Of a DNA stretch of 59,250 nucleotides, positions 15,052 to 51,153 are shown piece by piece (positions within the stretch are counted from its first letter, which is position 1; each line of letters starts with the position of its first letter). The translations under genes were made by a program, and so were the position numbers. Origin of the DNA: Minisyncoccota bacterium (GTDB lineage: Bacteria; Patescibacteriota; Minisyncoccia; Phycocordibacterales; UBA5272); NCBI GenBank assembly GCA_018061825.1, contig JAGOTK010000003.1:1-59250 (forward strand), given 5' to 3'. The notes beneath the pieces are model-generated. The model was not told the origin of the DNA. It worked only from the letters and a program-made list of their open reading frames with translations, and searched no databases.

Positions 15052-15095
15052 AGATTTATTTTTTATAAATAAAGAAAATCTGCACTAATAATTAG

Positions 15096-16950: not shown

Positions 16951-16992
16951 AATTGATTATATTATACTACATTAAATTATATATTTTTATCT

Positions 16993-17313
16993 TTAAGGTA
17001 AAAATGGATTATTACGTCCCACTTGTTGACTTGGAGAAACATATTCAAATGCAGAATGATCTTCTTTTGCTAATTGATTATTTAAATTTAATGTAAAAGA
17101 TAAATTTTCTTTATTTATAATATCTACATCTTTTGATAATTTTGTACCCGATAAATAAGCATTAGTGGCTGAATTTGAATCACCAGGACTATCTTCAAAA
17201 AAACCTTTATATACAAAATATCCAATTATAAATAAGACTATCAAAATTATTGGAAAAATTAATTTTAATAGGCCTTTATTTTTATCTTTATTTATATTTT
17301 CATTATTATCCAT
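16993..17313 (-). CDS. Small single-TM pilus-locus protein, PilP-like (C-terminal GRNNPFLP)
   Basis: 106 aa, between the pilO-like gene and pilB. One TM; terminal RNNPF resembles the R(D/N)PF motif of PilP-type proteins. Confidence 0.4.
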   Translation of the reverse strand: MDNNENINKDKNKGLLKLIFPIILIVLFIIGYFVYKGFFEDSPGDSNSATNAYLSGTKLSKDVDIINKENLSFTLNLNNQLAKEDHSAFEYVSPSQQVGRNNPFLP

Positions 17314-17317
17314 AAAT

Positions 17318-17926: not shown

Positions 17927-17935
17927 ATATTTTCT

Positions 17936-18757: not shown

Positions 18758-18762
18758 ATATT

Positions 18763-22146: not shown

Positions 22147-22226
22147 CTAAAAAATACTACACAATATAAGGAAAAATAAAAGTAATAAATCAAGGATTTT
22201 TAAATATTCATTAAAAATTCATTTTG

Positions 22227-22300
22227 TGCTTCCACTTGGACTTGAACCAAGGACCCCACGGATATAAGCCGTGTGCTCTAACCAACTGAGCTATGGAAGC
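22227..22300 (-). tRNA. tRNA-Ile, anticodon UAU (no encoded CCA)
   Basis: Manual fold of the reverse complement: GCTTCCA/TGGAAGC acceptor, GCTC/GAGC D-stem, CACGG-CTTATAT-CCGTG anticodon arm, CTTGG-TTCAAGT-CCAAG T-arm, discriminator A. Confidence 0.85.
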
Positions 22301-32843: not shown

Positions 32844-35333
32844 TTATCTAATTTCAAATCCTTTATTCTTTAAAGCGTTATATACTTTTTCTGCTTCAAG
32901 ATTTACTTCTTCGTCAGTCAAAGTTTTTTCTTTATCTTGATAAATCAATCTAAATCCAAAAGATTTCTTTTTTATATTTTCTATTTCTTTTTCAAATTTA
33001 TCAAAAAGATTTACTGAGATACATAAATCAGAAATATTTTCTCTAATTATTCTTTCCAATTCTTCTTCGTTTACTTCTTCTCCCGTCCAAAAAGCTATAT
33101 CACGCACTATAAATGGCATAAGTGAAAATGATTTATATTTTACATCTTCACTTAAATCTATTTCTTCTAAATTTACAAATTCGTATTCTTCTTCAAGGTC
33201 TTTTATAATTTCATCAAAATTAATTTCAAATTTATTTTCTTTTTGTTTTTCATTTTTAGATTCTAAAATATTAATATCTTTTATTTTTAAAGCTATTTTT
33301 ATTTCTTCTAATATCTTATTTTTAATTTCAGTATAATTTTTATTTTTCTTTCCGTCATCTATCGCAATAGCAAGACTTAGCCATTCTTTTTCTTTTCCAT
33401 TTTCGTCAGTAGAAAAACAATTTCCAAATTCAAAAATTTTTATCTCACTCAAATTGAGAAGTGGTATGTTAAAAATATTTTTCTGCACAGCATCTTCTAT
33501 TCCAACAGATAATTTATTTCTTAAAAAGTTTTTATCTTGAGCAACAGATTTGATTATTTCTATATCTCCTTTATTTCGTAGAGAATATGTATATACTTCA
33601 CTAAATCCAGCTTTAAATAAAATAGTTTTTACTACATTTGTAAAATACATTCTTTTAGAAAGCTTTCCAGATCTATTTAGATTTGGAATTTCACTTTTGA
33701 TATTGTTTAATCCGTATACTCTTGCTATTTCCTCTATCAAATCTTCTTTTATTCTTAGATCAAGTCTTTCCTCTGGTATTGTGATTATAAATCTTTCTTC
33801 ATCAATACTCTCAAGAACTCGACCATATCCTACAAACTTTCCTTTTTCTAAAAATTTATCCAAAGATTCTACCTCTGTTCCTTTTTCTAATTTACTAGAT
33901 GAATGTAAAATATTATCGCCCCCTATATACATAGCAAGATGATCTATTCCTTTTTCTACTTTTTCTCCTTTATGATAATCTTTTCCTTCAAAATAAATCC
34001 CTGTTGTTTTTATCTCTCCAGTATTTATAAAAATAAAATCTCCAAATCTTAAATCTTCTTTATCTTTTATTTCTTTTCCTAGATCTTTTGTATATAAATA
34101 TTTATCTATAGAAATAGAGGGTAAATATACTCCTTCATACAAATATGACACTAGAGATGAGCAAGAAAATGCATCTGGAGCATCTTCTCTCATAGAGCTT
34201 GGATTTTTATATTTTTTACCTACGACATCTCTAATCACGCTTTCAATGTTTTCTTTTGTAGAAATATATTTATATGAAAATCCAAATCTATCAAAAATAT
34301 TTTGTACTTCTTTTTGCTTTAATTCTGTTCCTAATATTTTATTTATTTCTTTTAAAGATACAGATACTTTGTATTTCCATTTACTTAATTTTTCTTTTGG
34401 AAAATTGTCTACAATCTCGCCTATTTCTATATTTGTATTTTCATCACTCGCATATTCTTTTATTAATTTTAAAGTTTCTACCATTCCGATTTCTACAAGT
34501 TCGTCAGCTAGCTCATTTTCAAATCTTTTACTTGCGTCTGTTTTAAGATTATATTTTTGTGAAGTCTTTCTAATTAAGACAGGATTAAAATTTGCACTTT
34601 CTACAATAATATTTTTTGTAGTAGAAGAAATCCCAGAATGCTTTCCACCTTTTATTCCAGCAAGACCGAGTACATTTTTAGCGTCTGCTATCACTAAAGT
34701 TTTTTCATCAAGACTTAATTCTTTATTATCAAGTGTTGTCATCACTTCACCCTCTTTCGCAAATCTTGCTTCAAGAAATTCTGAAATTAAATCAGCATCA
34801 TATGCATGCATTGGTTTATTAAAGCTAAATTGCACATAGTTTGTGATGTCTACAATGTTATTTATACTTTTTTGCCCAATACTTTCTAGTCTGTATTTTA
34901 TAAATTCTGGACTATCTTTTACTAATATATTATTTACTTTGCACCCCATAAATCTTGTACAAGATTTACCAGTATTTGCTTCTGCAGCAATTTTTACAAA
35001 ATCAGAATCAGATTTTATAACAGAAAAATTATTTTCTAAATTTTTCTCTCCTAAGTTTCTTTCTTTCATTTTAAAACCAAAAAGTGTAGCGACTTCTTTG
35101 GCCATATAATAATGTGATAGTGCATCGTGCGCTCTATTTGGAAGAACATTTAAATCATAAATCCAATCAGTCTTTTCTGCTTTTTTATCTTCTTCTTTTT
35201 CTGCTGTTTTATTTTCTATTTCAAAATATTCTTCTACTTCAAAAGCATTAGTAGAAATAACTTTAACAAAATCCTCCCCTTTTGGAATTTTCTCTTCTAC
35301 ATATTCTTGTATCCAACTGTGTAAATATTTCAT
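32844..35333 (-). CDS. pheT: Phenylalanyl-tRNA synthetase beta subunit, no OB tRNA-binding domain, NlpC/P60-like insertion in B5
   Basis: 829 aa. B3/B4 (PMHAYDADL), B5 halves (VSVSLKEINKILG... and ...IITIPEERLDLRIKEDLIEEIARVYGLNNI) split by ~155 aa carrying FSCSSLVSYLY / DHLAMYIGG / ILHSS. Confidence 0.9.
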   Translation of the reverse strand: MKYLHSWIQEYVEEKIPKGEDFVKVISTNAFEVEEYFEIENKTAEKEEDKKAEKTDWIYDLNVLPNRAHDALSHYYMAKEVATLFGFKMKERNLGEKNLENNFSVIKSDSDFVKIAAEANTGKSCTRFMGCKVNNILVKDSPEFIKYRLESIGQKSINNIVDITNYVQFSFNKPMHAYDADLISEFLEARFAKEGEVMTTLDNKELSLDEKTLVIADAKNVLGLAGIKGGKHSGISSTTKNIIVESANFNPVLIRKTSQKYNLKTDASKRFENELADELVEIGMVETLKLIKEYASDENTNIEIGEIVDNFPKEKLSKWKYKVSVSLKEINKILGTELKQKEVQNIFDRFGFSYKYISTKENIESVIRDVVGKKYKNPSSMREDAPDAFSCSSLVSYLYEGVYLPSISIDKYLYTKDLGKEIKDKEDLRFGDFIFINTGEIKTTGIYFEGKDYHKGEKVEKGIDHLAMYIGGDNILHSSSKLEKGTEVESLDKFLEKGKFVGYGRVLESIDEERFIITIPEERLDLRIKEDLIEEIARVYGLNNIKSEIPNLNRSGKLSKRMYFTNVVKTILFKAGFSEVYTYSLRNKGDIEIIKSVAQDKNFLRNKLSVGIEDAVQKNIFNIPLLNLSEIKIFEFGNCFSTDENGKEKEWLSLAIAIDDGKKNKNYTEIKNKILEEIKIALKIKDINILESKNEKQKENKFEINFDEIIKDLEEEYEFVNLEEIDLSEDVKYKSFSLMPFIVRDIAFWTGEEVNEEELERIIRENISDLCISVNLFDKFEKEIENIKKKSFGFRLIYQDKEKTLTDEEVNLEAEKVYNALKNKGFEIR

Positions 35334-37548: not shown

Positions 37549-38256
37549 ATGCAAAAAAAGGATATTTTAAGATATATAATAGTATTTTTCATTACTTTGA
37601 CTTTATTTTTGACAGCTATATGGCTCTCATCTTTTATAAATGATTATAAGCTTAATGACATAAAAGACGTTCAAGATAAGATATCACTTGATATCTCTTC
37701 TTCTGAGACTCAATTTCAACTCTTGCAAGGCATGTCTTGTAAAGATGTTTCTGCTTCTACTCTATCTGACGCTTTAAATAATCTTGCAGAGAAAATTACT
37801 TACAGTGAACAAAATATAAAGCAGAGAGATCAAGTATCTGATTTAAAAAAATATTACAGTCTACTTGAAATAAAAGATTACCTCTTGATGCAAAAAATAA
37901 AAGAAAAATGCAACATGCCTGTGATACCAATATTTTACTTTTATACAACTTCTGAAAATTGTGCCAATTGCGTAAAAGAGTCTGCTGTACTTAGTGAGCT
38001 TCGCAATAAATATCCAGAGCTTCGTGTATATTCTTTTGATTACAATCTTGATTTATCAGCCCTAGATACTTTAAAAAAGATCTTTAAAGTTGATGACAAA
38101 AAGCTCCCTGCTATATATATAAATGACAAGCTTTATACAGGCTTTCAATCTGAAGAAGATATTTTAAAAGCTTTGCCAGAGCTAGCTAAATACGAAAAAG
38201 AAAGACTGGAAGAAGAAGCAAAAATAGCTTCGAGTACCAAAGCGAATAATAAATAA
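37549..38256 (+). CDS. Membrane-anchored thioredoxin-like protein (CxxC)
   Basis: 235 aa. N-terminal TM; FYFYTTSENCANCVKES... resembles a thioredoxin-fold active site. Confidence 0.5.
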   Translation: MQKKDILRYIIVFFITLTLFLTAIWLSSFINDYKLNDIKDVQDKISLDISSSETQFQLLQGMSCKDVSASTLSDALNNLAEKITYSEQNIKQRDQVSDLKKYYSLLEIKDYLLMQKIKEKCNMPVIPIFYFYTTSENCANCVKESAVLSELRNKYPELRVYSFDYNLDLSALDTLKKIFKVDDKKLPAIYINDKLYTGFQSEEDILKALPELAKYEKERLEEEAKIASSTKANNK

Positions 38257-40236: not shown

Positions 40237-41607
40237 TTATTTACTATACTGAGTCAAATAATCTATATTTGACTGAATTCCTGGTACTTTGGACATTACA
40301 GATTTTCCATAAGAACAATTACTTCCTCCTGTACCATAATATCTACAAGCTGCCTTAATCTGAGAAAGATAAGAAGTGGCAGCTCCTAAATCAGCCAAAT
40401 ATCTTGATGATGCAAATATAGCATCATGAGCATTCCATGGATTATATATATCAATCTCTGAAGCTACTTCTTTCCATGTAGATGGGATAAATTGCGCTGG
40501 TCCCATAGCACCACCATAGCCACCAGCTGAAGGTATAGGGCAAGATACCACTGTCTTTAATGGATCCATTCCTAAACTAGCAGTTATCTTCAAAAACACA
40601 GGAATATCCCTACTTGCTTTCATCACATTTGGAAATTTTTTTCCTGAGCTAATATTGTATCCAGCTCCTGTGGAAGTATCAGACAGATAGCATTTACCAA
40701 CATTTGCTCCGAGAGATGATTCTTGGGTTAAAATAGCCAATACAAAGGCAGCAGAAACTCCAGTCTTAACTTGTGCAGCTTTAGCATAATTTAAAGCATC
40801 ACCAAAAGATATTGCTGCCGTACTTCCTCCAGCAAATTTAAAAAGTGCTGCTTTAATTTTTGTTGCCTCAGCCTGCTTATCTGAAAGTTGTTTCTTATAC
40901 AAAACCTCTTGTCCTTTTGTTTCTTTTAAAAGAGTATTCTTTTGACTTTTTGATACAGATATCTGATCCTGTTCTACCTTTTGTTGATTTTTAAGAGCAA
41001 GTTGAGAGTCTTTGTTATTCTCAAGATCTGATTTTACTTGATTTACTTTATCTGTGGTATTTTTTATTTTAGAAACATTATTATTAATAGCATTTTGTAA
41101 ATCTCCTATTTTATTTATATCTTCAAAAAATTGAGATAAAGATTTATCGGTTAAAATAAAAGTCACAAAATTATTTGAACCATCAAATATGTTCATATTA
41201 CGAAGAGAGCCGCTTAAAGCATCTCTTTGACTTTCCATGGTATCACTCAGATTACCAAGTTCTATATTTTTATCAAGAATCTGACTACTTAATACTGTAA
41301 TATTATTATCTATCTTTTTTATTTGTAGCTGTCTTTCATTTATTTTAGCTTGTAAAATAGAAATATCACGAGATAAAGATGCCGATTGAGCTTGAGTTGT
41401 AGATATCACTTTTTGTTGCTCAGCTATTTGAGCCTCTAAAAGATTTAATTCATTTTGAAGTCTTGCTCTTGTCTCATCTATATTTTGAGCCAAAGAATCC
41501 TTAACATTAAAAGTTATTGGGAGTATTAGAATCAAAAAAATAAAAGAAGACAACAAAAAATGTCTCGCAAATTGAGTCTTGCTTTTCATATAAGTATATT
41601 TTATCAT
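40237..41607 (-). CDS. Secreted coiled-coil protein with C-terminal lytic transglycosylase (SLT/MltB-like) domain
   Basis: 456 aa. N-terminal TM/signal, ~220 aa heptad-rich region. C-terminus has LTQESSLGANVGKCY and GAMGPAQFIPSTW. Confidence 0.7.
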   Translation of the reverse strand: MIKYTYMKSKTQFARHFLLSSFIFLILILPITFNVKDSLAQNIDETRARLQNELNLLEAQIAEQQKVISTTQAQSASLSRDISILQAKINERQLQIKKIDNNITVLSSQILDKNIELGNLSDTMESQRDALSGSLRNMNIFDGSNNFVTFILTDKSLSQFFEDINKIGDLQNAINNNVSKIKNTTDKVNQVKSDLENNKDSQLALKNQQKVEQDQISVSKSQKNTLLKETKGQEVLYKKQLSDKQAEATKIKAALFKFAGGSTAAISFGDALNYAKAAQVKTGVSAAFVLAILTQESSLGANVGKCYLSDTSTGAGYNISSGKKFPNVMKASRDIPVFLKITASLGMDPLKTVVSCPIPSAGGYGGAMGPAQFIPSTWKEVASEIDIYNPWNAHDAIFASSRYLADLGAATSYLSQIKAACRYYGTGGSNCSYGKSVMSKVPGIQSNIDYLTQYSK

Positions 41608-43968: not shown

Positions 43969-44229
43969 TTAAATATTGGAATCAAAAAATTCTGTAACAA
44001 ATTTATAAATCGATCCAGCAGAAAATATTATCACTAAACCAATAAGACCCCAAAGCATATGGTTTTTACCTTTTTTAATACCTTCATCTTCGCCATTTAC
44101 TCTTGCTATCATAAAATTGACAACTCCATATAAAAACCACACAAAAGATAAAGAAGATAAAAGAAAAATAGCAGGATTTACAAACTGATCTACTAAACGA
44201 ACACCTATTGTATCAAAGCTTTCTATCAT
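43969..44229 (-). CDS. Stand-alone VirB2/TrbC-like helix-loop-helix pilin-module protein
   Basis: 86 aa. Helix AIFLLSSLSFVWFLYGVVNFMI, loop ARVNGEDEGIKKGKNHM, helix LWGLIGLVIIFSAGSIY. 5 nt upstream of glyQS. Confidence 0.6.
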   Translation of the reverse strand: MIESFDTIGVRLVDQFVNPAIFLLSSLSFVWFLYGVVNFMIARVNGEDEGIKKGKNHMLWGLIGLVIIFSAGSIYKFVTEFFDSNI

Positions 44230-44246
44230 AAATTTAATTATAAAAA

Positions 44247-44255
44247 ATTATATCA
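44247..44255 (-). promoter_or_regulatory. Extended -10 TGATATAAT upstream of the 86-aa pilin-module gene / glyQS
   Basis: 17 nt to the ATG. Confidence 0.5.
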
Positions 44256-44270
44256 CGATAATAAAAAAAC

Positions 44271-44300
44271 AAAAACATTTAGAAAAATCTAAATGTTTTT
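44271..44300 (-). terminator. Hairpin terminator
   Basis: aaaaacatttaga-aaaa-tctaaatgttttt. Confidence 0.75.
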
Positions 44301-44332
44301 GTAGTCTATATAATCTCTACATTATCAAAAAA

Positions 44333-44929
44333 TTATCTAGGCAATTTTGGCGCATTTACTTGTGCAGTTGGATTTATACCGATAGCGTCTCCAAAGAATG
44401 CAATAATTCCCCAAAGAGTGACCATTACAAATATCGCAGCCAATGAATAACCCATACCTTTTACAGCCTTTTCTCTTCCTTCTTCTTTATCTGCGTCAAC
44501 AATAAAATATCTAATAAGAAACCAAAAGAATAATACCACAGCTACTCCGAGAAGAATTGGAGGTAAAAGAGAGATTATCCCTCCCAATTGTGCTAGAAGA
44601 TTTGTAATAAATGAAAGATCTGCAGTATTACCTGATTGTCTTACTACTTTACCTTGTTGATAAGAAGCATTTCCTGCTGGGGTCCCATTTGCTGGGACTC
44701 CGTTTGCTGGGACTCCACTTACTACTGGTCTAACACCTCCAGTCTGCACATTCACTCCAACCCCTCCTGCTGCTTGGACATTTACAGATGTACCTGTCTG
44801 TGCACAACTTCCATCAGTATTATATCTAACACAAGTGACTTGGACACCTCCACCTATAATCTGTGCAGATGCAATACCTATAGATAATGCAAAAATTACT
44901 CCTGAAATAACTCCTATATATTTTTTCAT
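44333..44929 (-). CDS. Secreted Gly/Val-rich protein with C-terminal pilin-like helix-loop-helix module
   Basis: 198 aa. Signal peptide, GGVQV/GVGVNVQTGGV and GVPANGVPANGTPAG repeats. Then LLPPILLGVAVVLFFWFLIRYFIVDADKEEGREKAVKGMGYSLAAIFVMVTLWGIIAFF. Confidence 0.6.
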   Translation of the reverse strand: MKKYIGVISGVIFALSIGIASAQIIGGGVQVTCVRYNTDGSCAQTGTSVNVQAAGGVGVNVQTGGVRPVVSGVPANGVPANGTPAGNASYQQGKVVRQSGNTADLSFITNLLAQLGGIISLLPPILLGVAVVLFFWFLIRYFIVDADKEEGREKAVKGMGYSLAAIFVMVTLWGIIAFFGDAIGINPTAQVNAPKLPR

Positions 44930-44991
44930 AATGAATTTATTGATTTATAAAATAATGTAAAGACTATTTTGACTAAAATAATCATGCCTTA

Positions 44992-45000
44992 ATTATATCA
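44992..45000 (-). promoter_or_regulatory. Extended -10 TGATATAAT upstream of the 198-aa gene
   Basis: 62 nt to the ATG. Confidence 0.45.
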
Positions 45001-45049
45001 TTAAAAAAAATAAGACAAGATTCTTATACACAAATAACAAAATAAAGAA

Positions 45050-45077
45050 AAAAGCGTTGCAATAATGCAACGCTTTT
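45050..45077 (-). terminator. Hairpin terminator
   Basis: aaaagcgttgca-ataa-tgcaacgctttt. Confidence 0.8.
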
Positions 45078-45201
45078 ATTAAATAAAAAAAATAAAAAAA
45101 ATAGCCGTTAATCGACACATATTATATCAATATTGATATCGTCTGTGTAAATTACGACAGAGATATATATTAAAAATAAATGTATAAATTAACGACTAGG
45201 T

Positions 45202-45438
45202 TTAGTCTTTCTTTTTCTTTTTAAAGTAAACAATTGCTACTATCAAAAGAATGATTACTAAACCAGGACTTTTCTGTGACTGAAGGTTTAAAGCATTAGC
45301 TATAGAACCAATCACAGACCCAAGTGCTCCAAATATTGAAGCCATAGCATCCCATATAGATGGTACAAACATAATGAGCATGATCACTATTGCTACAACA
45401 CCACCTGGAATAGAGGCTGATTTTTTTTCGTCTGACAT
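45202..45438 (-). CDS. Small 2-3 TM membrane protein, independently transcribed
   Basis: 78 aa with a KKKKKD tail. TTGACA-17-TATAGT promoter at 45528-45556; terminator at 45050-45077. Confidence 0.55.
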   Translation of the reverse strand: MSDEKKSASIPGGVVAIVIMLIMFVPSIWDAMASIFGALGSVIGSIANALNLQSQKSPGLVIILLIVAIVYFKKKKKD

Positions 45439-45527
45439 AAAATAAATTTAATAGATTAAAAGAATTATAAAAAAATTCTATGTACTAGGCATTCGCCTCA
45501 ATAACAAAGAACTAAATATCTGTGTAT

Positions 45528-45556
45528 ACTATATACCAAATAAAAATATTTGTCAA
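45528..45556 (-). promoter_or_regulatory. TTGACA-17-TATAGT promoter for the 78-aa gene
   Basis: Read on the reverse complement. ~80-nt leader with a small aggc-attc-gcct hairpin. Confidence 0.55.
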
Positions 45557-45589
45557 GCGAAATAATAGAATTTATGATAAAAATAAAAT

Positions 45590-45614
45590 AAAACCCTTAT
45601 TTTATAAGGGTTTT
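45590..45614 (-). terminator. Hairpin terminator closing the SBP/pilin-like operon
   Basis: aaaacccttat-ttt-ataagggtttt. Confidence 0.8.
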
Positions 45615-45634
45615 ATTTAGTTATGTTTCATTTT

Positions 45635-46630
45635 TTACTGACAATCTTTTACTTTAATTCCTGTAATTGAAGTCTTTTGTCCTGTACTTACAGAAAGAGC
45701 TTCCCATGTATCCTTGTCAACAATACCATCATTTGGTAATCCATTTGTTTTTTGAAATGATTTTACAAAAATAGCATCTATATTTTCATAAGTTGTACCA
45801 AAAGTATCACCTAATTTGTATATATCTCTACCAAGATAAGCAGTGACACAATTTTTCTTTTTTAAAAGACCTACTAATAGTGTAAAAGCATTCCCATCTC
45901 TAGAAGCACCTGCTTTTAAATCTGATTTAGCCCCTATATTTATTACAGGATAATTTGTCTGATTTGCAAAAGGATTATCAACTATATTTCCAGTAGAATT
46001 TTTTTCTAATTTCATTTTATCTAATTCATCTGTAGTCACGCAAATACCTTTTTCCGTATCTTTAGCTTTACCGTTTGTACCTTGACACACCAATTCATCT
46101 CCACAAACATCCTTAGAATTTTTACCAGTACAAGGACTGTATTTATTAGATGCGAAATCTTTTACTAATTTTTTAGAGTTATCTTCACTTTCTGTTACTT
46201 TTTCTTTTATACCTGCTGGCGTAGTAAATGCTACAGACTGAATTTGGATATTATTATCATCTTTCATTCCTAAAAAGTCTTGCGCTAATTTTATTATTCC
46301 CCATGTTGATACCATTACAAATAATGCAATTAATCCCCACATCATAGCTTCTTTATCTTTTTGAAGTCTAGTGTCATCACCACTTGATCTATCATAAATA
46401 AATCTGACGATACCATAAAAAAATACTACAAAAGAAGCTGTCATTAAAAGAGTCGTAGCAGAAGATAGTATATTAGTTGTAATATTATTTGCAGCCTCTT
46501 TAAAATTTAAAGACCCTTGAAGTCCGTTATCTGCTCCTGAAGCAGCAAAAGAGAAGTTTATATTTATAAAAATCAAAGTAAAGACTGATGATAATATTTT
46601 TAAGAAATTTTTTAAATTATTTTTTTTCAT
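45635..46630 (-). CDS. Secreted pilin-module protein with Cys-rich head and C-terminal peptidoglycan-binding-like motif
   Basis: 331 aa. Signal peptide; module ...SFVVFFYGIVRFIYDRSSGDDTRLQKDKEAMMWGLIALFVMVSTWGII; C-terminus FVKSFQKTNGLPNDGIVDKDTWEAL. Confidence 0.65.
   Translation of the reverse strand: MKKNNLKNFLKILSSVFTLIFININFSFAASGADNGLQGSLNFKEAANNITTNILSSATTLLMTASFVVFFYGIVRFIYDRSSGDDTRLQKDKEAMMWGLIALFVMVSTWGIIKLAQDFLGMKDDNNIQIQSVAFTTPAGIKEKVTESEDNSKKLVKDFASNKYSPCTGKNSKDVCGDELVCQGTNGKAKDTEKGICVTTDELDKMKLEKNSTGNIVDNPFANQTNYPVINIGAKSDLKAGASRDGNAFTLLVGLLKKKNCVTAYLGRDIYKLGDTFGTTYENIDAIFVKSFQKTNGLPNDGIVDKDTWEALSVSTGQKTSITGIKVKDCQ
46332..46408 (-). repeat. 77-nt near-identical core shared with 47442-47518
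   Basis: aatccccacatcatagcttctttatctttttg... is identical for the first 32 nt, with about 6 mismatches overall. Confidence 0.85.
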
Positions 46631-46636
46631 AAATTT

Positions 46637-47758
46637 TTATTTATTACGATTTTCTACAAACATAATAACTGCTTTTGTAGAAGGACCCACGAGGTTATCT
46701 TCTTTTAAGAAAAATTTTGCTTGAAAATTTAAAAGTGCTTGAGTTGTTTTTCCTCCATATATACCGTCTATTCCATGAGTACCTGAGGTACCTAAATCAT
46801 ACCCTTGATCACGTAAAAAGCTTTGCAAGTCTGATACAGAGCCGTCAGAATTTGCATCTGTAGATTTTCCATTCGTCATCAGAGCAGGCCAGAAATCTAC
46901 ACTATAAAGATCCCTGTCTGGCTTTGCTCCCATATGTCTATATAATATCACTGCTTTCGTACCATATCCTACGATACCATCTTGAGCTAAAGCATTTGCT
47001 TTTTGAAAAGCTTTCACCGCTAAAGTGGTTTTTGGACCATATATACCATCTACACCATCTTTATTTGGACCAGTATTTCCTAAATAATTAGCATAGCCGT
47101 GATCTTTTAAAAATAACTGAAGCTGAGCAATCTCATTTGTACCATTTGGTGAACCCATGTCTTCTTTTAAATTATTTTGCCAAGCACGAATCTTTTCTAT
47201 ATCATATGAGCTATCAATATTACTTACAACGTCTAACTTTTTAGTAGTATCTTTTGGATCTTTAAAAACTTGATCTTTTATACCTCCTTTATTTGCATTT
47301 GAAGCTGGATCAGATTTGCTATCACAACTTCCAGCAGCACAAATCTTTGGAAGATTTATATCACCAGAGTCCCCTATTCCTAGGAATCCTTGAAACATTT
47401 TTATTATTCCCCAGACAGATATCAAAATAAACAAAGCGACCAATCCCCACATCATAGCTTCTTTATCTTTTTGTAATCTAGTCTCGTCACCACTTGATCT
47501 ATCATAAATAAATCTAACTAATCCAAATAAAAATAAAGCAAAAGCAACACTGCTAAGCAATGTCACTAAATTTCCAAATATATTTGTATTTATATTTTGT
47601 ATCAATTTTCCTGCTCCTGAAATATTGTCACCTATAAGACCGACATGATCTGTACTCTTTGTAGCTGCTGTAGAGGTAGCTCTAGCAATACCACTAATAC
47701 TAATAAAAAAAATAAAAAGTGAAACGGAAATATTTTTTGTAAGAAATTTTTTGAACAT
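46637..47758 (-). CDS. Secreted pilin-module protein with two PG_binding_1-like domains (paralog of 45635-46630)
   Basis: 373 aa. Module ...FALFLFGLVRFIYDRSSGDETRLQKDKEAMMWGLVALFILISVWGII. Two repeats of L(Q)xFLxDxGY...DGIYGxKTxxAxxxFQ. Confidence 0.65.
   Translation of the reverse strand: MFKKFLTKNISVSLFIFFISISGIARATSTAATKSTDHVGLIGDNISGAGKLIQNINTNIFGNLVTLLSSVAFALFLFGLVRFIYDRSSGDETRLQKDKEAMMWGLVALFILISVWGIIKMFQGFLGIGDSGDINLPKICAAGSCDSKSDPASNANKGGIKDQVFKDPKDTTKKLDVVSNIDSSYDIEKIRAWQNNLKEDMGSPNGTNEIAQLQLFLKDHGYANYLGNTGPNKDGVDGIYGPKTTLAVKAFQKANALAQDGIVGYGTKAVILYRHMGAKPDRDLYSVDFWPALMTNGKSTDANSDGSVSDLQSFLRDQGYDLGTSGTHGIDGIYGGKTTQALLNFQAKFFLKEDNLVGPSTKAVIMFVENRNK
47442..47518 (-). repeat. 77-nt near-identical core shared with 46332-46408
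   Basis: Same as the partner copy; encodes RFIYDRSSGD(D/E)TRLQKDKEAMMWGL. Confidence 0.85.
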
Positions 47759-47775
47759 AATTTTATATTGATAAA

Positions 47776-47784
47776 ATTATATCA
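47776..47784 (-). promoter_or_regulatory. Extended -10 TGATATAAT upstream of the 373-aa gene
   Basis: 17 nt to the ATG. Confidence 0.45.
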
Positions 47785-47792
47785 TATATAAT

Positions 47793-49211
47793 TTAGTACT
47801 TTGTACCATCTATATCAAAAGTATAATTTGCAACAATATCATTATTTTTTTTATCTATTGGTTTTAAATATAATGATAATTTTGTATAAATTTTTAATTT
47901 GTATATACCGCCAGCTTCTTTTATGTCATCTTCATATGCCTTTTCTATATCGATTGGAGAAATTTTAAAAACTGAATTATTGATTGAAAAAAGATTTTTA
48001 TTCTCAAAATCTCCAAGAGATATATTAAAACTTGTCATCTCTTTTTCTTTTCCATCATTAACTTGTGATATCTTTATAGAGCCAGTAAAATTCATTGGAT
48101 TAAAAGCATATTTATCTTTAAAACTAGGTTTTATTTCTATAATAAGATAGTCTAGATTTCCACCTAGAGAGCTACTAGTACGAAAACTAAGAACATCGTC
48201 TTTTGTATAATTTCTCTGTTCGTTACTAGTGTCAGATTTATCTTGTTGTTGCTTCGTATCATCTGTATATTTACCATTATCTGACGGCTCAGGATTATTT
48301 ATTTCTTTATCTAAAGGAATATCTTTTACGTCATTAGTATTGTTTTGCTTTTGTGTGACAGTTTGCTTTTGTGTAGCAGTTTGCTTTTGTGTAGCAGTCG
48401 ATTTAGGTGAAGAATCTGATCCTATGACATCCTGTATAGTAGCAAATACCATATTTAATAATAAAGGTGCCATAATTGAAACACCTATTCCAATAAGCAT
48501 CCATGTTGCAAATTTTTTAGCTTTTGCCAACTCCTCTGGATTACCTTCTGCTTTTACAAATCTAAATCCAGAATATATTACACCCATAGTAAGTATAGGA
48601 GCTACAATATAAGTAACTAAAAATTTAATTGTCTTTTGTATTACAGATATAAATGTTTGTTGTGGAAATAAATTTACATACTGAGTCGAAGATTGAGCAT
48701 AAGCATGATTAATAAAATTAAAATCATTAAAAGAAAATATCTTCTTTACTATATCTAAAACGTCTTTATTAAATCCAAGTGATACCAAGGCTGCAAATAC
48801 TAAACTAGCAGCTGTCACCATTATTATTATAGCTATCACGCCATTTTTTAATATCTTTTTTAATTTTTCTCTATATTCTGGAACATCTCCATAAAATGCT
48901 AAACCTACACCAGCATAAAGAGTATATCCAACTACAACTAAAATTACTCCGTATATCAATATGTCTCTTATAGGCTTAAGCATCCCAAACATATCTTGTA
49001 TAGTACACTCTTTTCCCACAGATCCATCTTCTGCTAAATGTGCACACTCAGGTACAATCCCTTTTCCGTCAGCATTTATATTTGAAATATCAGGAGCTCC
49101 ATTATTGTCTTGCGCTAAAGCTAGAGAAGACACGAGTGTAGAAAAAGAAATAGTTAAAAATAAAACTATTAAAATTTTCTGTAGGTTTTTTTTATTTAAA
49201 ATGTTTTTCAT
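47793..49211 (-). CDS. Secreted protein with two tandem pilin-like modules, TATQKQ repeat linker and C-terminal globular domain
   Basis: 472 aa. Signal peptide; GIVPECAHLAEDGSVGKEC. Module A ...YAGVGLAFYGDVPEYREKLKKILKNGVIAIII; module B ...YSGFRFVKAEGNPEELAKAKKFATWMLIGIGV. Then TATQKQTATQKQTVTQKQ. Confidence 0.65.
   Translation of the reverse strand: MKNILNKKNLQKILIVLFLTISFSTLVSSLALAQDNNGAPDISNINADGKGIVPECAHLAEDGSVGKECTIQDMFGMLKPIRDILIYGVILVVVGYTLYAGVGLAFYGDVPEYREKLKKILKNGVIAIIIMVTAASLVFAALVSLGFNKDVLDIVKKIFSFNDFNFINHAYAQSSTQYVNLFPQQTFISVIQKTIKFLVTYIVAPILTMGVIYSGFRFVKAEGNPEELAKAKKFATWMLIGIGVSIMAPLLLNMVFATIQDVIGSDSSPKSTATQKQTATQKQTVTQKQNNTNDVKDIPLDKEINNPEPSDNGKYTDDTKQQQDKSDTSNEQRNYTKDDVLSFRTSSSLGGNLDYLIIEIKPSFKDKYAFNPMNFTGSIKISQVNDGKEKEMTSFNISLGDFENKNLFSINNSVFKISPIDIEKAYEDDIKEAGGIYKLKIYTKLSLYLKPIDKKNNDIVANYTFDIDGTKY
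48345..48398 (-). repeat. 3 x 18-nt in-frame tandem repeat
   Basis: ttgcttttgtgtgacagt / ttgcttttgtgtagcagt / ttgcttttgtgtagcagt. Confidence 0.9.
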
Positions 49212-49222: not shown

Positions 49223-50590
49223 TTATTCTCCATCGTACACAGCTTGAAGATTATCTGTAAATTCTTTACTTGCTTCAACTGTACTTTTTTCACCATTATA
49301 TACTTCTCTTATAGCTTCTCTCATTAAAGATTCTAAATCTTGTCTATGTAAATCATAAAAGGTCTTACTGATTAATGCACTGTTTCCAAATATTTCAGCA
49401 TCCTGACCTCCTGAAGATATCTCTTCAGCAATATTAGCTTTTAATGCTGATACTGCACCTGTGGTAGATACTAAATTTTGACTAAATGGACCTGTAGCTA
49501 AAGCAATCATGATCTGATAAGCCAAACTCGTCTCACTTGCATTTGGACTTGTACGAAGCATGAATATAGTATTTAATTTTCCATATGTAGCTGATATTTT
49601 ACTACCATCAGCTTGAGGTAAATATGTATAATCAAAAGATAATTTTTGATTTGCAGATTTAACATAATAAGATTCACTAGCGTAGCCTATATAAAAAGCA
49701 AGATTACCAGAAATGAATTTAGATAAAGCATCTCCAGATTTAGGATTCCAATTATAAGTATCTTTTTGAGTATCTGAGAAATCTTTAGTAAAAGCTAAAG
49801 CTGAATTTAAAGGAGAATTACCATCATCAGTTATACTTTGGTCAACTAAAATAGTATATTTTGAAATACTGTTGCCATCCGAATCTCTTGCTATTGATTT
49901 TACAACTGGAATCTGACCTTGTTGAAATATCATTGATAAAATAATATCTGTGACATGTGGAATATTGTCATATGTACCAAAAGCTATTGTAGAAAGAGAT
50001 ATATTTTGACTATCATCTTTTTTTGTTATCTTTCTTTCATAAGTATATAAATCTCCCCATGTAGTAGGAGGATATAAAAATCCATTACTTGATAAAATAT
50101 CTTTATTATAATAAAGAACTAAAGGATCTATCGATACTGGTAAGGCTATATATCCGTAAGGAGGATATATAAGTATTGCTGCAGAATCGATAAAAGAATT
50201 TTTGTAAACAGATTCAGGAATGGTCGTTGTATTTATAGGGAAAAGTCTTGATATATTTGCGAGTGCTAAATCTACAGGACCTATTATTAAATCTGGCCCC
50301 ACACCATCTGCTAAAGCTGATGTTAATTTATTATTAAATTGATTGTAAGGAACTTCTGTATATTGCATTGAATAAGTTTTTGCTTCCTTATTAAAAGCAC
50401 TTACAAAATTAGACATACCTTCTTGTGAAAGAGTGCCCCAGACTTTGACTGTACCTGTTAGCTTTTGATTTGAAGATGAAGAATTAAAGAATGGAATCTT
50501 TCCAGAAAATCCAAGTACAGCTATGACAGTAGCAAATAAACCTAATCCAAATAATACACTTTTGAAATTTAAATATTTACTAAAGTCCAT
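49223..50590 (-). CDS. Membrane-anchored extracellular solute-binding protein (family 1, sugar-type), no cognate permease or ATPase in the window
   Basis: 455 aa. N-terminal TM; VKVWGTL...; GVGPDLIIGP; PVSIDPLVLYYNKDIL...PPTTWGDL. Confidence 0.7.
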   Translation of the reverse strand: MDFSKYLNFKSVLFGLGLFATVIAVLGFSGKIPFFNSSSSNQKLTGTVKVWGTLSQEGMSNFVSAFNKEAKTYSMQYTEVPYNQFNNKLTSALADGVGPDLIIGPVDLALANISRLFPINTTTIPESVYKNSFIDSAAILIYPPYGYIALPVSIDPLVLYYNKDILSSNGFLYPPTTWGDLYTYERKITKKDDSQNISLSTIAFGTYDNIPHVTDIILSMIFQQGQIPVVKSIARDSDGNSISKYTILVDQSITDDGNSPLNSALAFTKDFSDTQKDTYNWNPKSGDALSKFISGNLAFYIGYASESYYVKSANQKLSFDYTYLPQADGSKISATYGKLNTIFMLRTSPNASETSLAYQIMIALATGPFSQNLVSTTGAVSALKANIAEEISSGGQDAEIFGNSALISKTFYDLHRQDLESLMREAIREVYNGEKSTVEASKEFTDNLQAVYDGE

Positions 50591-50628: not shown

Positions 50629-51153
50629 CTATCTATACTCCTCAACGATAAAAGCATAATGAAAATTACCCGCAGGAAAATGTTTTTTAATTCTAAAATT
50701 ATTTTTTGCAAGTATTGCTGTAATTTTTTCTTCAGGAACAATTCCAATTCTCTTATTAGACATTGGATGATCTAAATCTTTCCAGTCGATAACAAGAACA
50801 TAGCCATTTGGTTTTAAAATTCTTTTTATTTCTAAAAGGGTCTTGTCTATATCTTTTATTTCTGATAAGACGTTTGAAAGTATCACAACGTCACAAGACA
50901 AACTCTCTATTTGTATTTTGTCTTCTATGTTAGTTAATAATGTATCGATGTTTATTATATTCATTTTCTCAGCTTCACGATTTATTTTTTCTAAAATATC
51001 CCTATGAATATCCACAGCGTAAACTTTTCCTCTATCACCTACTATTTTTGATGTTATAAAAACATATGTACCTGAGCCACATCCAAAATCTGCGACAACA
51101 TCACCTTTTTTAAGTTCTAAACTTTCTACAATTTGTGAAGGAGAAATAAACAT
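50629..51153 (-). CDS. Class I SAM-dependent methyltransferase
   Basis: 174 aa. Motif I VADFGCGSG; Methyltransf_11-like spacing. Confidence 0.75.
   Translation of the reverse strand: MFISPSQIVESLELKKGDVVADFGCGSGTYVFITSKIVGDRGKVYAVDIHRDILEKINREAEKMNIINIDTLLTNIEDKIQIESLSCDVVILSNVLSEIKDIDKTLLEIKRILKPNGYVLVIDWKDLDHPMSNKRIGIVPEEKITAILAKNNFRIKKHFPAGNFHYAFIVEEYR

What the first reader, a model, noticed from the sequence alone, without database searches (positions are those of the whole stretch)
43969..49211. Array of proteins built on a shared VirB2/TrbC-like helix-loop-helix pilin module with different extracellular heads and no secretion ATPase nearby
Seen in sequence: five minus-strand genes (86, 198, 331, 373 and 472 aa) each contain the same architecture, and the 472-aa protein contains it twice. 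The module is a long hydrophobic helix, a short charged loop, then a second hydrophobic helix that often begins with WG or LIG. Loop examples: ARVNGEDEGIKKGKNHM-LWGLIGL; FIVDADKEEGREKAVKGMGYSLAAI; RFIYDRSSGD(D/E)TRLQKDKEAMMWGL; FRFVKAEGNPEELAKAKKFATWMLIGI; AFYGDVPEYREKLKKILKNGVIAII. Four of the five have signal peptides. The heads differ: none (86 aa), Gly/Val-rich and GVPANG repeats (198 aa), a Cys-rich region plus one PG-binding-like motif (331 aa), two PG_binding_1-like repeats (373 aa), and a TATQKQ linker plus a ~170-aa globular C-terminus (472 aa). Established knowledge: this topology matches conjugative-type (VirB2/TrbC, so-called T4SS pilin) subunits, and small proteins of this kind are often annotated in CPR genomes without known function. 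Inference: fusing a polymerisable or membrane-hairpin module to peptidoglycan-binding heads, together with operon linkage to an orphan solute-binding protein, suggests a wall-anchored surface filament or adhesion/uptake complex. No VirB4, VirD4 or VirB6 gene is present in the window. The only assembly machinery visible is the separate type IV pilus locus 25 kb away.
Basis: partly seen in the sequence, partly recalled or inferred. Interest (0 to 1): 0.8.

Follow-up and report, generated by a model that had tools for sequence, protein, structure and literature searches.

The report
SBP-linked VirB2-like pilin gene array
An ultra-small (Patescibacteria) bacterium carries a conserved operon of one sugar-type binding protein followed by five membrane "pilin-like" hairpin proteins with different outward-facing heads; such pilin arrays are already known in this group, but this binding-protein-linked, wall-binding version has not been described.

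Summary
Five minus-strand genes (86, 198, 331, 373 and 472 aa) carry six copies of one helix-loop-helix module. All six match Pfam PF18895 (T4SS_pilin), and the 472-aa protein also weakly matches TrbC/VirB2. Two proteins add PG_binding_1 heads. The window has no VirB4, VirB6 or VirD4.

VirB2-like pilin arrays of 2-11 genes are already published for Patescibacteria (PMC12102498), and the one in S. epibionticum is essential. So the kind is known.

Three things look new:
- In 21 of 24 non-redundant loci, spanning SBP identities from 79% down to about 30%, the array directly follows a membrane-anchored orphan sugar-type solute-binding protein, in a fixed GyrA–methyltransferase–SBP–array context.
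- The paralogues are old and keep their order. Same-position copies in different genomes are 47-68% identical; different copies within a genome are 25-40%. The double pilin looks like a fusion of ancestral genes 1 and 2, and the shortest pilin is always last.
- The heads differ by lineage: PG-binding, fn3/PhoD_N-like, or orphan.

Best reading: specialised subunits of a heteromeric, wall-spanning T4SS-type pilus or stalk, built by a VirB4 machine encoded elsewhere. That machine could not be checked here. A T4SS-independent SBP-coupled envelope complex is not excluded.

The parts
50629..51153 (-). 174-aa SAM-dependent methyltransferase. It is conserved immediately upstream of the SBP. It is genomic context and may or may not belong to the system.
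   Evidence: Precomputed Pfam Methyltransf_11/25/31 hits. Homologues sit upstream of the SBP in 20 of the 21 SBP-bearing loci.
49223..50590 (-). 455-aa solute-binding protein with an N-terminal TM anchor, sugar-type (SBP_bac_1/SBP_bac_8), with no ABC permease or ATPase partner nearby. It is the first gene of the operon.
   Evidence: Pfam E 4.8e-19 and 1.1e-15, above cut-off. The best solved relatives are sugar SBPs such as GacH (E 1.5e-8). N-terminal TM segment at residues 7-32. A pilin array follows directly in 21 of 21 SBP-bearing loci, with gaps of -44 to +19 nt.
47793..49211 (-). 472-aa 'double pilin': signal peptide, two PF18895 hairpin modules (DNA 48750-49028 and 48399-48680), a TATQKQ low-complexity linker, and an orphan beta-rich C-terminal head (DNA 47796-48224).
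   Evidence: PF18895 E 5.6e-15 with two stretches; TrbC E 2.7e-4. AF2 gives two helical hairpins at pLDDT 70-87 and a low-confidence beta-rich C-terminus. Relatives are 264-296 aa and lack the head. The head has 0 hits among 1.84 billion representatives.
46637..47758 (-). 373-aa protein: signal peptide, one hairpin module (DNA 47354-47620), a disordered linker with a conserved Cys pair, and two PG_binding_1 domains.
   Evidence: PF18895 E 6e-5 and PG_binding_1 E 1.9e-23 in two copies. AF2 pLDDT 74.8: hairpin H46-89/H92-125, PG-binding domains above 90. Foldseek finds the SleB N-terminal domain and endolysin PG-binding domains. About 30 full-length orthologue clusters.
45635..46630 (-). 331-aa protein: signal peptide, one hairpin module (DNA 46244-46510), a Cys-rich region, and one PG_binding_1 domain. 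Its module is a recent paralogue of the 373-aa protein's module.
   Evidence: PF18895 E 9.6e-6 and PG_binding_1 E 1.6e-6. Module identity to the 373-aa protein is 61%. The two genes share a 169-nt repeat at 79% identity.
45586..45618 (-). Terminator-like hairpin after the 331-aa gene. It is the predicted end of the SBP–472–373–331 transcription unit.
   Evidence: 15-pair stem followed by a T-run. Gene gaps within the unit are 11, 34 and 6 nt.
45202..45438 (-). 78-aa two-TM ORF inside the array. It is not a PF18895 match. It has its own promoter-like site (45556-45528) and terminator-like site (45077-45050).
   Evidence: Homologues sit at the same position in L009 and L012 (E 8e-22 and 5e-27).
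44333..44929 (-). 198-aa protein: signal peptide, an N-terminal Gly/Val-rich GVPANG head, then one hairpin module (DNA 44354-44638). A terminator-like hairpin follows at 44302-44269.
   Evidence: PF18895 E 1.7e-4. Local module HMM E 1.8e-30. Same-position orthologues of 175-226 aa average 65% identity. Terminator-like site.
43969..44229 (-). 86-aa minimal hairpin pilin with no signal peptide and no head. It is the last gene of the array and ends 5 nt before the GlyRS start codon. It is a candidate core subunit.
   Evidence: PF18895 27.5 bits against a cut-off of 26.6. NCBIfam Mbov_0395 pilin-like family, E 4.8e-7, below cut-off. The last gene is the shortest (82-109 aa) in every complete array. 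The 'short' class is recovered in last position in distant arrays.
40237..41607 (-). 456-aa coiled-coil plus SLT_2 lytic transglycosylase. It is conserved a few genes downstream of the array in the close clade. It is genomic context and a possible VirB1-like wall-opening helper.
   Evidence: SLT_2 E 5.3e-11. Orthologues at the same position in L007, L010, L011, L013, L016-L018 and L031.

Best explanation
**What it is.** This is a chromosomal, vertically inherited operon of a Paceibacteria-type (Nomurabacteria-like) Patescibacterium. It encodes a membrane-anchored sugar-type solute-binding protein followed by five VirB2-like (PF18895) membrane hairpin proteins.

**Shown**
- Each module is two long helices joined by a conserved charged loop.
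- Signal peptides and the order of hydrophobic segments put both ends of each hairpin outside the cell and the loop inside. Every head (PG-binding, Gly-rich, orphan beta domain) is therefore extracellular.
- The paralogues are ancient and keep a fixed gene order.
- The SBP gene is almost always attached.

**Inferred**
- The proteins are specialised, non-interchangeable subunits of one heteromeric envelope structure. It would be the pilus or stalk of the Patescibacteria monoderm-type T4SS, whose VirB4/TrsD/VirB3/VirB6 genes lie elsewhere in the genome.
- The head-less 86-aa protein is the repeating core subunit.
- The double pilin, a fusion of ancestral genes 1 and 2, is a base or adaptor.
- The two PG-binding paralogues fasten the structure to the cell wall, either the cell's own or the host's.
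- The co-translated SBP works at the structure as a glycan receptor.
For: - **Family membership.** All six modules hit PF18895. 92 of 92 related modules hit PF18895 and 22 of 92 hit TrbC/VirB2, best E 8.3e-8. There are sub-threshold hits to a Mycoplasma ICE pilin-like family.
- **Hairpin structure.** AF2 models give helical hairpins at pLDDT 70-87.
- **Extracellular heads.** The PG-binding domains model at pLDDT above 90 and match solved PG-binding domains, including that of the T2SS protein EpsAB. Conserved Cys pairs lie on the predicted outside.
- **Distinct roles for the paralogues.** Same-position orthologues are 47-68% identical against 25-40% between paralogues across 6 genomes. In distant arrays the order 'dpA-like, dpB-like, middle class, short' is conserved. 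The shortest pilin is always last.
- **One operon.** Gene gaps are 11, 34 and 6 nt, with a terminator-like site after the 331-aa gene.
- **SBP linkage.** It holds in 21 of 24 loci, down to about 30% SBP identity.
- **Link to a T4SS, from the literature.** PF18895 genes lie next to virB4 in many Patescibacteria, including Nomurabacteria (Table S3 of PMC12102498). VirB4 is present in 2417 of 3035 assemblies. The pilin array inside the S. epibionticum T4SS cluster is essential (PMC10633639; PMC12857230). PF18895 genes are among the most highly expressed unknown genes in Paceibacteria that parasitise methanogens (PMC10936435).
Against: - No T4SS ATPase or channel gene lies in the 59-kb contig or within about 10 kb of the array in any of the 24 loci. 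The rest of the genome could not be searched.
- A profile of the 92 modules finds no solved VirB2/TraA/TrbC pilin by sequence (best E 0.065, a designed channel). Foldseek did not recover pilins either.
- Three of the five proteins score below the PF18895 gathering cut-off.
- Heads of 150-250 aa on most subunits are hard to fit into a tightly packed VirB2-type helical filament.
- No PF18895 protein has been shown experimentally to polymerise.
- No T4SS is known to use an SBP.
Confidence: 0.5

Rival explanations
1. A T4SS-independent envelope complex. The SBP and the five hairpin proteins form a self-contained, membrane-embedded and wall-anchored assembly for adhesion or for capturing and taking up host-derived glycans. 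The ten to twelve TM helices together would form the membrane part, with no VirB4-driven polymerisation.
For: - The SBP is followed by hairpin genes in every one of the 21 loci where it was seen, down to the weakest SBP homologue listed.
- No ABC permease or ATPase partner lies in the window or the flanks.
- The locus is fixed beside gyrA and is never near virB4.
- The number of hairpin genes is nearly constant at five.
Against: - The modules belong to a family (PF18895, related to TrbC/VirB2) whose members lie beside virB4 in more than 1100 assemblies.
- No known transporter is built from VirB2-like hairpins.
- Two arrays (L019, L021) have no adjacent SBP.
Confidence: 0.25
2. Independent surface proteins that merely share a hairpin membrane anchor. 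Tandem duplication produced a family of anchors, each displaying a different extracellular domain (for example PG-binding heads tethering membrane to wall). There is no joint complex, and the SBP linkage is only conserved synteny in a stable core-genome region.
For: - The heads are diverse and lineage-specific: PG_binding_1, fn3/PhoD_N-like (681 aa in L023), and orphan domains.
- The array sits among housekeeping genes (gyrA, glyS, rpmG, rplY, rpsB, tsf) whose order is also conserved in the close clade.
- Terminator-like sites split the array into several transcription units.
Against: - Head-less members (82-109 aa) are always present and always last.
- In distant clades most or all members have no head yet still form a five-gene set.
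- The loop residues are strongly conserved (R87, G90, D98, K99 in the 373-aa family), which is more than a passive anchor needs.
- The SBP-array junction (-44 to +19 nt) persists where the downstream synteny is lost.
Confidence: 0.15
3. A variation cassette. The paralogues are alternative major pilins used for antigenic or host-range variation. This was suggested for Patescibacteria arrays by analogy with Bartonella and Anaplasma (PMC12102498).
For: Paralogues within the array are very divergent: 10-34% identity, with one pair at 61%. This resembles the published 25% mean and 54% maximum.
Against: - Each position is conserved across genomes (47-68%) far more than paralogues resemble each other.
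- Order and class are conserved even in distant clades.
- The architectures differ qualitatively (double module, N-terminal versus C-terminal heads) rather than being variants of one subunit.
Confidence: 0.05
4. A prophage-type lysis cassette in which the two-TM proteins are holins and the PG-binding proteins are endolysins.
For: The PG_binding_1 region of the 373- and 331-aa proteins hits PHROG endolysin families, best E 1.2e-21. An SLT_2 transglycosylase lies 2.4 kb downstream.
Against: - The PHROG hits cover only the binding domain. No catalytic domain and no holin family match exist.
- There are no other phage genes.
- The locus is core, syntenic and vertically inherited across deep divergences.
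- Four of the five proteins have signal peptides.
Confidence: 0.01

Closest known systems
VirB2-like pilin arrays of Patescibacteria (Quinonero-Coronel et al. 2025, PMC12102498; the essential six-pilin array in the Southlakia epibionticum ML1 T4SS locus, Wang et al. 2023, PMC10633639; the 'Sec secreted array' of TM7x)
   Same: - Tandem genes matching PF18895.
- Low identity between paralogues.
- Sec signal peptides.
- A monoderm Patescibacteria host.
- The array is interrupted by a non-pilin gene.
   Different: - The S. epibionticum array lies inside the T4SS cluster. This one lies between gyrA and glyS, with no T4SS gene within about 10 kb.
- This one is headed by an SBP gene.
- Three members carry large heads (two of them PG-binding), and one is a covalent double pilin.
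- Neither fusions nor the SBP or gyrA linkage is mentioned in the paper, and no paper in the searched library combines these terms.
- The published arrays were most abundant in Microgenomatia and Saccharimonadia, not Paceibacteria.
TrbC/VirB2 conjugative pilins of Gram-negative T4SSs (Pfam PF04956; T-pilus and P-type pili)
   Same: - A two-helix hairpin with a short loop.
- N-out/C-out membrane topology after leader removal (established knowledge of the family).
- Weak to moderate profile similarity: 22 of 92 modules, best E 8.3e-8; the 472-aa protein at E 2.7e-4.
   Different: - Scores are below the family's gathering cut-off (21.5 against 27.9 bits).
- No sequence match to any solved pilin.
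- The loop is longer (about 15-18 residues).
- Large extracellular heads are present.
- No adjacent virB3-virB11 genes.
- The host is a monoderm.
Mbov_0395 family pilin-like conjugal transfer protein of Mycoplasma ICEs (NCBIfam NF045849)
   Same: A small two-TM protein from a monoderm or wall-less MPF-FATA-type transfer system. Four of the five proteins give E 4.8e-7 to 2.3e-5, and the 472-aa protein gives 9.5e-4.
   Different: - All scores (18.8-29.4 bits) are below the 40-bit cut-off.
- Those genes are ICE-borne and single-copy, not a chromosomal five-gene array.
- They carry no heads.
Major and minor pilin sets of type IV pili and type II secretion pseudopili (an analogy only)
   Same: A conserved, ordered set of divergent paralogues sharing one hydrophobic assembly module. 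One small abundant subunit is accompanied by several larger specialised ones.
   Different: - The fold and biogenesis are unrelated: an N-methylated single helix processed by a prepilin peptidase.
- The window has its own separate T4P locus at 8.3-19.8 kb.
Peptidoglycan-binding anchors of envelope machines, for example the PG-binding domain of the T2SS protein EpsAB/GspAB (PDB 4g54)
   Same: A PG_binding_1-type domain held on a membrane anchor next to a secretion or pilus machine. 4g54 is among the Foldseek matches of the 373-aa model.
   Different: Here the anchor is a VirB2-like hairpin. The Foldseek match is weak (E 0.48) and covers the binding domain only.
Cluster-B sugar solute-binding proteins of ABC importers (MalE/GacH type)
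   Same: SBP_bac_1 and SBP_bac_8 matches are above cut-off. The best solved relatives are sugar binders.
   Different: - No permease or ATPase genes are nearby.
- The subfamily is found, wherever its context was seen, immediately upstream of a pilin array.

Membership tests
Pfam PF18895 T4SS_pilin | Profile match at or above the curated gathering score (26.6 bits) | tested here: inconclusive
   The cut-off is met by the 86-aa (27.5 bits) and 472-aa (55.6 bits, two stretches) proteins. The 331-, 373- and 198-aa proteins fall just below it (26.0, 23.5 and 22.0 bits; E 1e-5 to 1.7e-4). All 92 related modules match at E<=0.01. A profile built from the window's six modules finds every one at E<1e-30.
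Pfam PF18895 T4SS_pilin | Two hydrophobic helices joined by a short charged loop | tested here: met
   Hydropathy segments. AF2 helical hairpins H46-89/H92-125 in the 373-aa protein, and H71-107/H111-144 plus H187-220/H225-266 in the 472-aa protein.
Patescibacteria VirB2-like pilin array (as defined in PMC12102498: 2-11 pilin genes in tandem or separated by one non-pilin gene) | At least two PF18895/VirB2-type genes in tandem or separated by one non-pilin gene, in a Patescibacteria genome | tested here: met
   Five genes carrying six modules, with one intervening 78-aa ORF. The closest genomes are titled Patescibacteria, Parcubacteria, Nomurabacteria or Elulimicrobiales.
Patescibacteria VirB2-like pilin array (as defined in PMC12102498: 2-11 pilin genes in tandem or separated by one non-pilin gene) | Low identity among the paralogues (published mean 25%, maximum 54%) | tested here: met
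   Identities are 10-34%, with one recent pair at 61%.
TrbC/VirB2 conjugative pilin (Pfam PF04956) | Profile match above the gathering score (27.9 bits) | tested here: not met
   The best score in the window is 21.5 bits, E 2.7e-4, for the second module of the 472-aa protein. 22 of 92 related modules match at E<=0.01, best 8.3e-8.
TrbC/VirB2 conjugative pilin (Pfam PF04956) | Encoded within or next to a T4SS gene cluster (virB3/virB4/virB6 and others) | tested here: not met
   None in the 59-kb window or within about 10 kb of the array in the related loci. The rest of the genome was not available.
TrbC/VirB2 conjugative pilin (Pfam PF04956) | Similarity to experimentally solved pilins (F, T and pKM101-type) | tested here: not met
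   A profile of the 92 modules against PDB sequences gives a best E of 0.065 and no pilin. Foldseek on both models recovered no pilin.
TrbC/VirB2 conjugative pilin (Pfam PF04956) | Polymerises into an extracellular filament in a VirB4-dependent way | not testable with these tools
   No multimer prediction tool was available, and no experiment can be done here.
A functional T4SS in the same genome | VirB4 ATPase, with TrsD, VirB3 and VirB6, present elsewhere in the genome | not testable with these tools
   The window is the entire contig (row P0038). The prior from the literature is VirB4 in 2417 of 3035 assemblies.
PG_binding_1 (Pfam PF01471) | Profile match above cut-off (23 bits) and the three-helix PG-binding fold | tested here: met
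   The 373-aa protein scores 82.8 bits in two copies and the 331-aa protein 28.6 bits. The AF2 domains have pLDDT above 90 and match the SleB N-terminal domain 6tci (TM-score 0.83 normalised to the target) and endolysin binding domains.
ABC-importer solute-binding protein (SBP_bac_1 / SBP_bac_8) | Profile match above cut-off | tested here: met
   69.7 and 58.8 bits against cut-offs of 27 and 26.
ABC-importer solute-binding protein (SBP_bac_1 / SBP_bac_8) | Encoded with its cognate permease and ATPase genes | tested here: not met
   No BPD_transp or ABC_tran gene lies in the window or in the flanks of the related loci.
Phage holin-endolysin lysis cassette | Holin family match plus a catalytic muralytic domain on the PG-binding protein | tested here: not met
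   PHROG hits cover only the PG-binding region. The hairpin proteins have no PHROG hit, and Pfam finds no catalytic domain.

The most novel reading that the evidence does not exclude
The invariably attached orphan sugar-type SBP and the fixed set of five VirB2-like hairpin paralogues form a previously unrecognised SBP-coupled envelope conduit of Paceibacteria. It would be a wall-spanning structure, possibly independent of VirB4, that captures host-derived glycans or wall fragments and channels them to the cell. On this reading, a conjugative-pilin fold has been turned into a nutrient-acquisition organelle.
Probability: 0.15. Interest if true: 0.85.

Novelty: new variant of a known kind. Interest (0 to 1): 0.58.

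Why it matters
How Patescibacteria obtain what they need from their hosts is an open question. What their essential T4SS and its puzzling pilin arrays do is described in the literature as completely unknown (PMC11665869).

This locus shows that in one large class (Paceibacteria/Parcubacteria) the pilin-like genes form an ancient, ordered five-member set. The set is tied to a dedicated binding protein and, in one clade, to peptidoglycan-binding heads. That offers three experimental handles:
- a soluble SBP whose ligand can be identified;
- PG-binding heads that can be tested on the cell's own sacculi and on host sacculi;
- a natural covalent pilin dimer for structural work.

It also suggests that published HMM thresholds under-count such arrays in Paceibacteria. 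Many orthologues carry only weak, faint or no precomputed PF18895 hits.

Tried and rejected
- **Solved pilin relatives.** A 92-module profile against PDB sequences gave only chance-level hits. Foldseek of the 373-aa model found only PG-binding domains. Foldseek of the low-confidence 472-aa model was uninformative.
- **Plasmid-borne relatives next to a T4SS.** tblastn of the best module against 72,556 plasmids found nothing credible.
- **C-terminal head of the 472-aa protein.**
  - It has no homologue in the word-indexed search and none in an exhaustive HMMER scan of 1.84 billion representatives.
  - The only lead is a weak collinear resemblance to the extension of a 519-aa orthologue in L014 (BLASTP E 3e-4 over 25 residues, 23% overall).
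- **VirB4 in a genome that carries this array.**
  - The related NCBI assemblies (GCA_964580245.1, GCA_030837425.1, GCA_039798205.1, GCA_037130925.1) and the UBA MAGs are absent from the stored part of the supplementary tables of PMC12102498.
  - Cluster look-ups returned no accession that could be mapped onto Table S3.
  - In that table, GW2011 Nomurabacteria genomes show a VirB6-VirB3-TrsD-VirB4-VirB2 cluster plus 'T_virB2' and 'PrgF' hits lying within three genes of each other, 50-240 genes from virB4. This may be the same array, but I could not verify it.
- **Lysis-cassette reading.** Rejected.
- **Variation-cassette reading.** Disfavoured by positional orthology.
- **Highly expressed PG-binding proteins in PMC10936435.** The one I could look up is a 693-aa protein and so looks like a different family.

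Full report
**1.

The five minus-strand ORFs have exactly the stated coordinates and lengths.
- Hydropathy shows an N-terminal hydrophobic segment plus one pair of TM helices in the 198-, 331- and 373-aa proteins. It shows two pairs in the 472-aa protein, and one pair with no signal peptide in the 86-aa protein.
- All five proteins match Pfam PF18895 'T4SS_pilin' (E 3.2e-6, 1.7e-4, 9.6e-6, 6.1e-5, 5.6e-15). The 472-aa protein matches in two separate stretches and also matches TrbC/VirB2 weakly (E 2.7e-4). Only the 86- and 472-aa proteins exceed the curated cut-off.
- NCBIfam gives sub-threshold hits to a Mycoplasma ICE 'pilin-like conjugal transfer protein' family.
- The adjacent 78-aa two-TM ORF and the SBP anchor do not hit PF18895, so the signal is not generic hydrophobicity.
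- The six modules align over about 80 residues with 10-34% identity. The 331/373 pair is 61% identical.
- PG_binding_1 occurs twice in the 373-aa protein and once in the 331-aa protein.
- Pfam scans of about 45 of the window's 55 ORFs of 120 aa or more, including every ORF of 220 aa or more, found a complete type IV pilus locus at 8.3-19.8 kb. They found no VirB4, VirB6, VirD4 or ABC transporter component.

**2. Anatomy**

- An AlphaFold2 model of the 373-aa protein, built on 38 homologues, has mean pLDDT 74.8. It shows:
  - a signal helix;
  - a helical hairpin (H46-89/H92-125, pLDDT 70-79);
  - a disordered linker;
  - two PG-binding domains with pLDDT above 90.
- Foldseek matches the PG-binding domains to the SleB N-terminal domain, to phage endolysin binding domains and to the T2SS EpsAB PG-binding domain.
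- The 472-aa model has pLDDT 55. It shows:
  - two hairpins with pLDDT 70-87;
  - a disordered TATQKQ linker;
  - a low-confidence beta-rich C-terminal domain.
- The signal peptides, the order of hydrophobic segments and the Lys/Arg-rich loops imply that both hairpin ends lie outside and the loop lies in the cytoplasm. Every head is therefore extracellular. This is an inference from the sequences and from the positive-inside rule.
- Conserved Cys pairs sit on the predicted outside.
- Gene gaps of 11, 34 and 6 nt and a strong terminator-like hairpin after the 331-aa gene indicate an SBP–472–373–331 transcription unit. The 78- and 198-aa genes are each followed by a terminator-like hairpin. The 86-aa gene ends 5 nt before the GlyRS start.

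**3. Relatives**

*The close clade*
- The 373-aa architecture (hairpin plus two PG-binding domains) recurs in about 30 protein clusters at 37-69% identity. The named ones are all Patescibacteria or Parcubacteria.
- Homologues of the 472-aa protein are 264-296 aa and cover only the double module.
- Its C-terminal head has no homologue among 1.84 billion representatives. The only lead is a weak collinear resemblance to the extension of one 519-aa orthologue.
- Gene neighbourhoods in five metagenomic or NCBI relatives show one layout: FtsH … GyrA – methyltransferase – SBP – double pilin – pilin+2×PG – pilin+1×PG – small ORFs – 175-226-aa pilin – 82-84-aa pilin – GlyRS – L33 – L25 – SLT_2 – S2 – EF-Ts.

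*More distant genomes*
- A scan of one genome per GTDB species with the double-pilin alignment gave 14 loci. All 14 have arrays of 4-6 pilin genes.
- The SBP search returned 128 homologues. Loci at 68%, 68%, 30% and about 30% SBP identity, the last being the weakest hit listed, all show GyrA–(x)–methyltransferase–SBP followed at once by a PF18895 array.

*Summary over 24 non-redundant loci*
- 21 loci have the SBP, and the first pilin gene starts -44 to +19 nt from the SBP stop.
- One further locus is cut off before the SBP position by the contig end.
- Two loci (L019, L021) have an array without an SBP.
- Arrays contain four to six genes, usually five.
- The last gene is always the shortest, at 82-109 aa.
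- No large flanking ORF is a T4SS component.

**4. The paralogues are old and specialised**

- Across six genomes of the close clade, modules at the same position are 47-68% identical on average. Different positions within a genome are 25-40% identical, and the two PG-binding paralogues 58%.
- Position-specific profiles applied to distant arrays (Taylorbacteria, Lloydbacteria, UBA6065 and others) give a consistent pattern:
  - The first gene scores as dpA/dpB-like.
  - In about half of the distant arrays a second dp-class gene follows, scoring as dpB-like by 20-40 bits.
  - The middle genes fall in the PG/N-head class.
  - The last gene usually falls in the 'short' class.
- The double pilin therefore looks like a fusion of ancestral genes 1 and 2, and the gene order predates these lineages.
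- This argues against interchangeable variant pilins and for a heteromeric assembly with fixed roles.
- Heads are lineage-specific additions:
  - PG_binding_1 in the close clade;
  - an fn3/PhoD_N-like 681-aa protein in L023;
  - orphan 375-482-aa proteins elsewhere.

**5. What is already known**

- Quinonero-Coronel et al. 2025 (PMC12102498) searched 3,035 Patescibacteria genomes. They found:
  - VirB4 in 2,417 assemblies, mostly in a Patescibacteria clade nested in the monoderm MPF-FATA class and often near dnaA;
  - VirB2-like pilins in 1,948 VirB4-positive assemblies, near virB4 in 1,135 of them;
  - 441 arrays of 2-11 pilin genes in 383 assemblies, with mean identity 25%.
- In S. epibionticum the array lies inside the T4SS cluster and is essential (PMC10633639; PMC12857230).
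- The role of this T4SS is described as completely unknown (PMC11665869).
- PF18895 genes are among the most highly expressed unknown genes in Paceibacteria that parasitise methanogens (PMC10936435).
- The array as a kind is therefore known. PMC12102498 mentions no pilin fusions, no SBP and no gyrA linkage. No paper in the library combines these terms.

**6. Explanation**

*Best-supported reading (confidence about 0.5)*
- The proteins are specialised subunits of the pilus or stalk of the Patescibacteria T4SS, which is encoded elsewhere.
- The 86-aa protein would be the core subunit and the double pilin a base or adaptor.
- The PG-binding paralogues would be wall fasteners, and the SBP a co-expressed receptor.

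*What is shown and what is inferred*
- Shown:
  - family membership;
  - hairpin and head architecture;
  - operon structure;
  - deep conservation;
  - positional orthology;
  - the SBP linkage.
- Inferred:
  - polymerisation;
  - dependence on VirB4;
  - the role of each paralogue;
  - what the SBP binds.

*Against this reading*
- No T4SS gene lies near any of the 24 arrays.
- There is no detectable similarity to solved pilins.
- Bulky heads are hard to fit into a VirB2-type filament.

*Rivals*
- A T4SS-independent SBP-coupled envelope or uptake complex (0.25).
- Unrelated surface proteins sharing a hairpin anchor (0.15).
- A variation cassette (0.05).
- A lysis cassette (0.01; PHROG hits cover only the PG-binding domain).

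**7. Limits**

- The window is an entire contig, so the rest of the genome could not be searched.
- The relatives' assemblies are not in the stored part of the published tables.
- Table S3 of PMC12102498 shows a pattern in GW2011 Nomurabacteria genomes. They carry a VirB6-VirB3-TrsD-VirB4-VirB2 cluster plus 'T_virB2' and 'PrgF' hits lying within three genes of each other, 50-240 genes from virB4. This is compatible with the present array coexisting with a T4SS, but I could not verify that it is the same locus.

**8. Verdict**

- This is a new variant of a known kind: a VirB2-like pilin array.
- Its distinguishing features are:
  - a dedicated orphan SBP;
  - a fixed housekeeping location;
  - ancient ordered paralogues;
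  - a fused double pilin;
  - peptidoglycan-binding and orphan heads.
- Interest is moderate to good, because it offers concrete handles on an open question rather than a new category of system.

Noticed in passing
window 32844-35333 (-): The PheRS beta subunit (829 aa) carries an NlpC/P60 match at residues 386-453 (37.1 bits against a cut-off of 23), between its B3_4 and B5 domains. A cell-wall peptidase-type domain inside a tRNA synthetase subunit is unusual.
   Followed up: no
window 22226-22300 (-): A tRNA-Ile with anticodon TAT (UAU). Most bacteria instead read AUA with a lysidine-modified CAU tRNA (the comparison is from my own knowledge).
   Followed up: no
window 8284-19839 (-): A complete type IV pilus locus: PilM, PilO, a 598-aa PilB-type and a 352-aa PilT-type ATPase, PilC, a prepilin peptidase and four N_methyl pilins. 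Two ORFs in it have no Pfam hit (8284-9009 and 17936-18757).
   Followed up: partly
window 40237-41607 (-): A 456-aa protein with a long EnvC/SMC-like coiled coil fused to an SLT_2 lytic transglycosylase. It is conserved a few genes downstream of the array in the close clade and could act as a VirB1-like wall opener.
   Followed up: partly
window 45202-45438 (-): A 78-aa two-TM ORF with a poly-Lys tail inside the array. It has its own promoter-like and terminator-like sites and is conserved at the same position in L009 and L012. Relatives have other small unannotated ORFs (62-120 aa) in this gap.
   Followed up: partly
L001-L006 (Logan contigs of the same organism); window 47376-47544 and 46266-46434: Five of the six independent short-read contigs shown end about 315 nt into the 373-aa gene. 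That point lies inside a 169-nt repeat (79% identity) shared with the 331-aa gene. This suggests assembly breaks or strain variation at the duplicated module.
   Followed up: no
L023 7864-9909 (+); L017 391-4062 (+); L018 424-3738 (+); L019 3-4907 (-): In L023 a 681-aa fn3/PhoD_N/Pur_ac_phosph_N-like protein with a pilin module sits between the SBP and the short pilins. Several loci have 1100-1635-aa surface proteins with a Peptidase_S74 (endosialidase chaperone) domain just upstream of the gyrA-array region.
   Followed up: partly
L022 7078-8378 (+): The array-linked SBP is split into two ORFs (181 and 239 aa) in this MAG. This is either a pseudogene or a sequencing frameshift.
   Followed up: no
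window 2962-4164 (-), 20655-21614 (-), 37549-38256 (+): ORFs of 400, 319 and 235 aa with no Pfam match at the E-value thresholds used (0.001-0.01).
   Followed up: no
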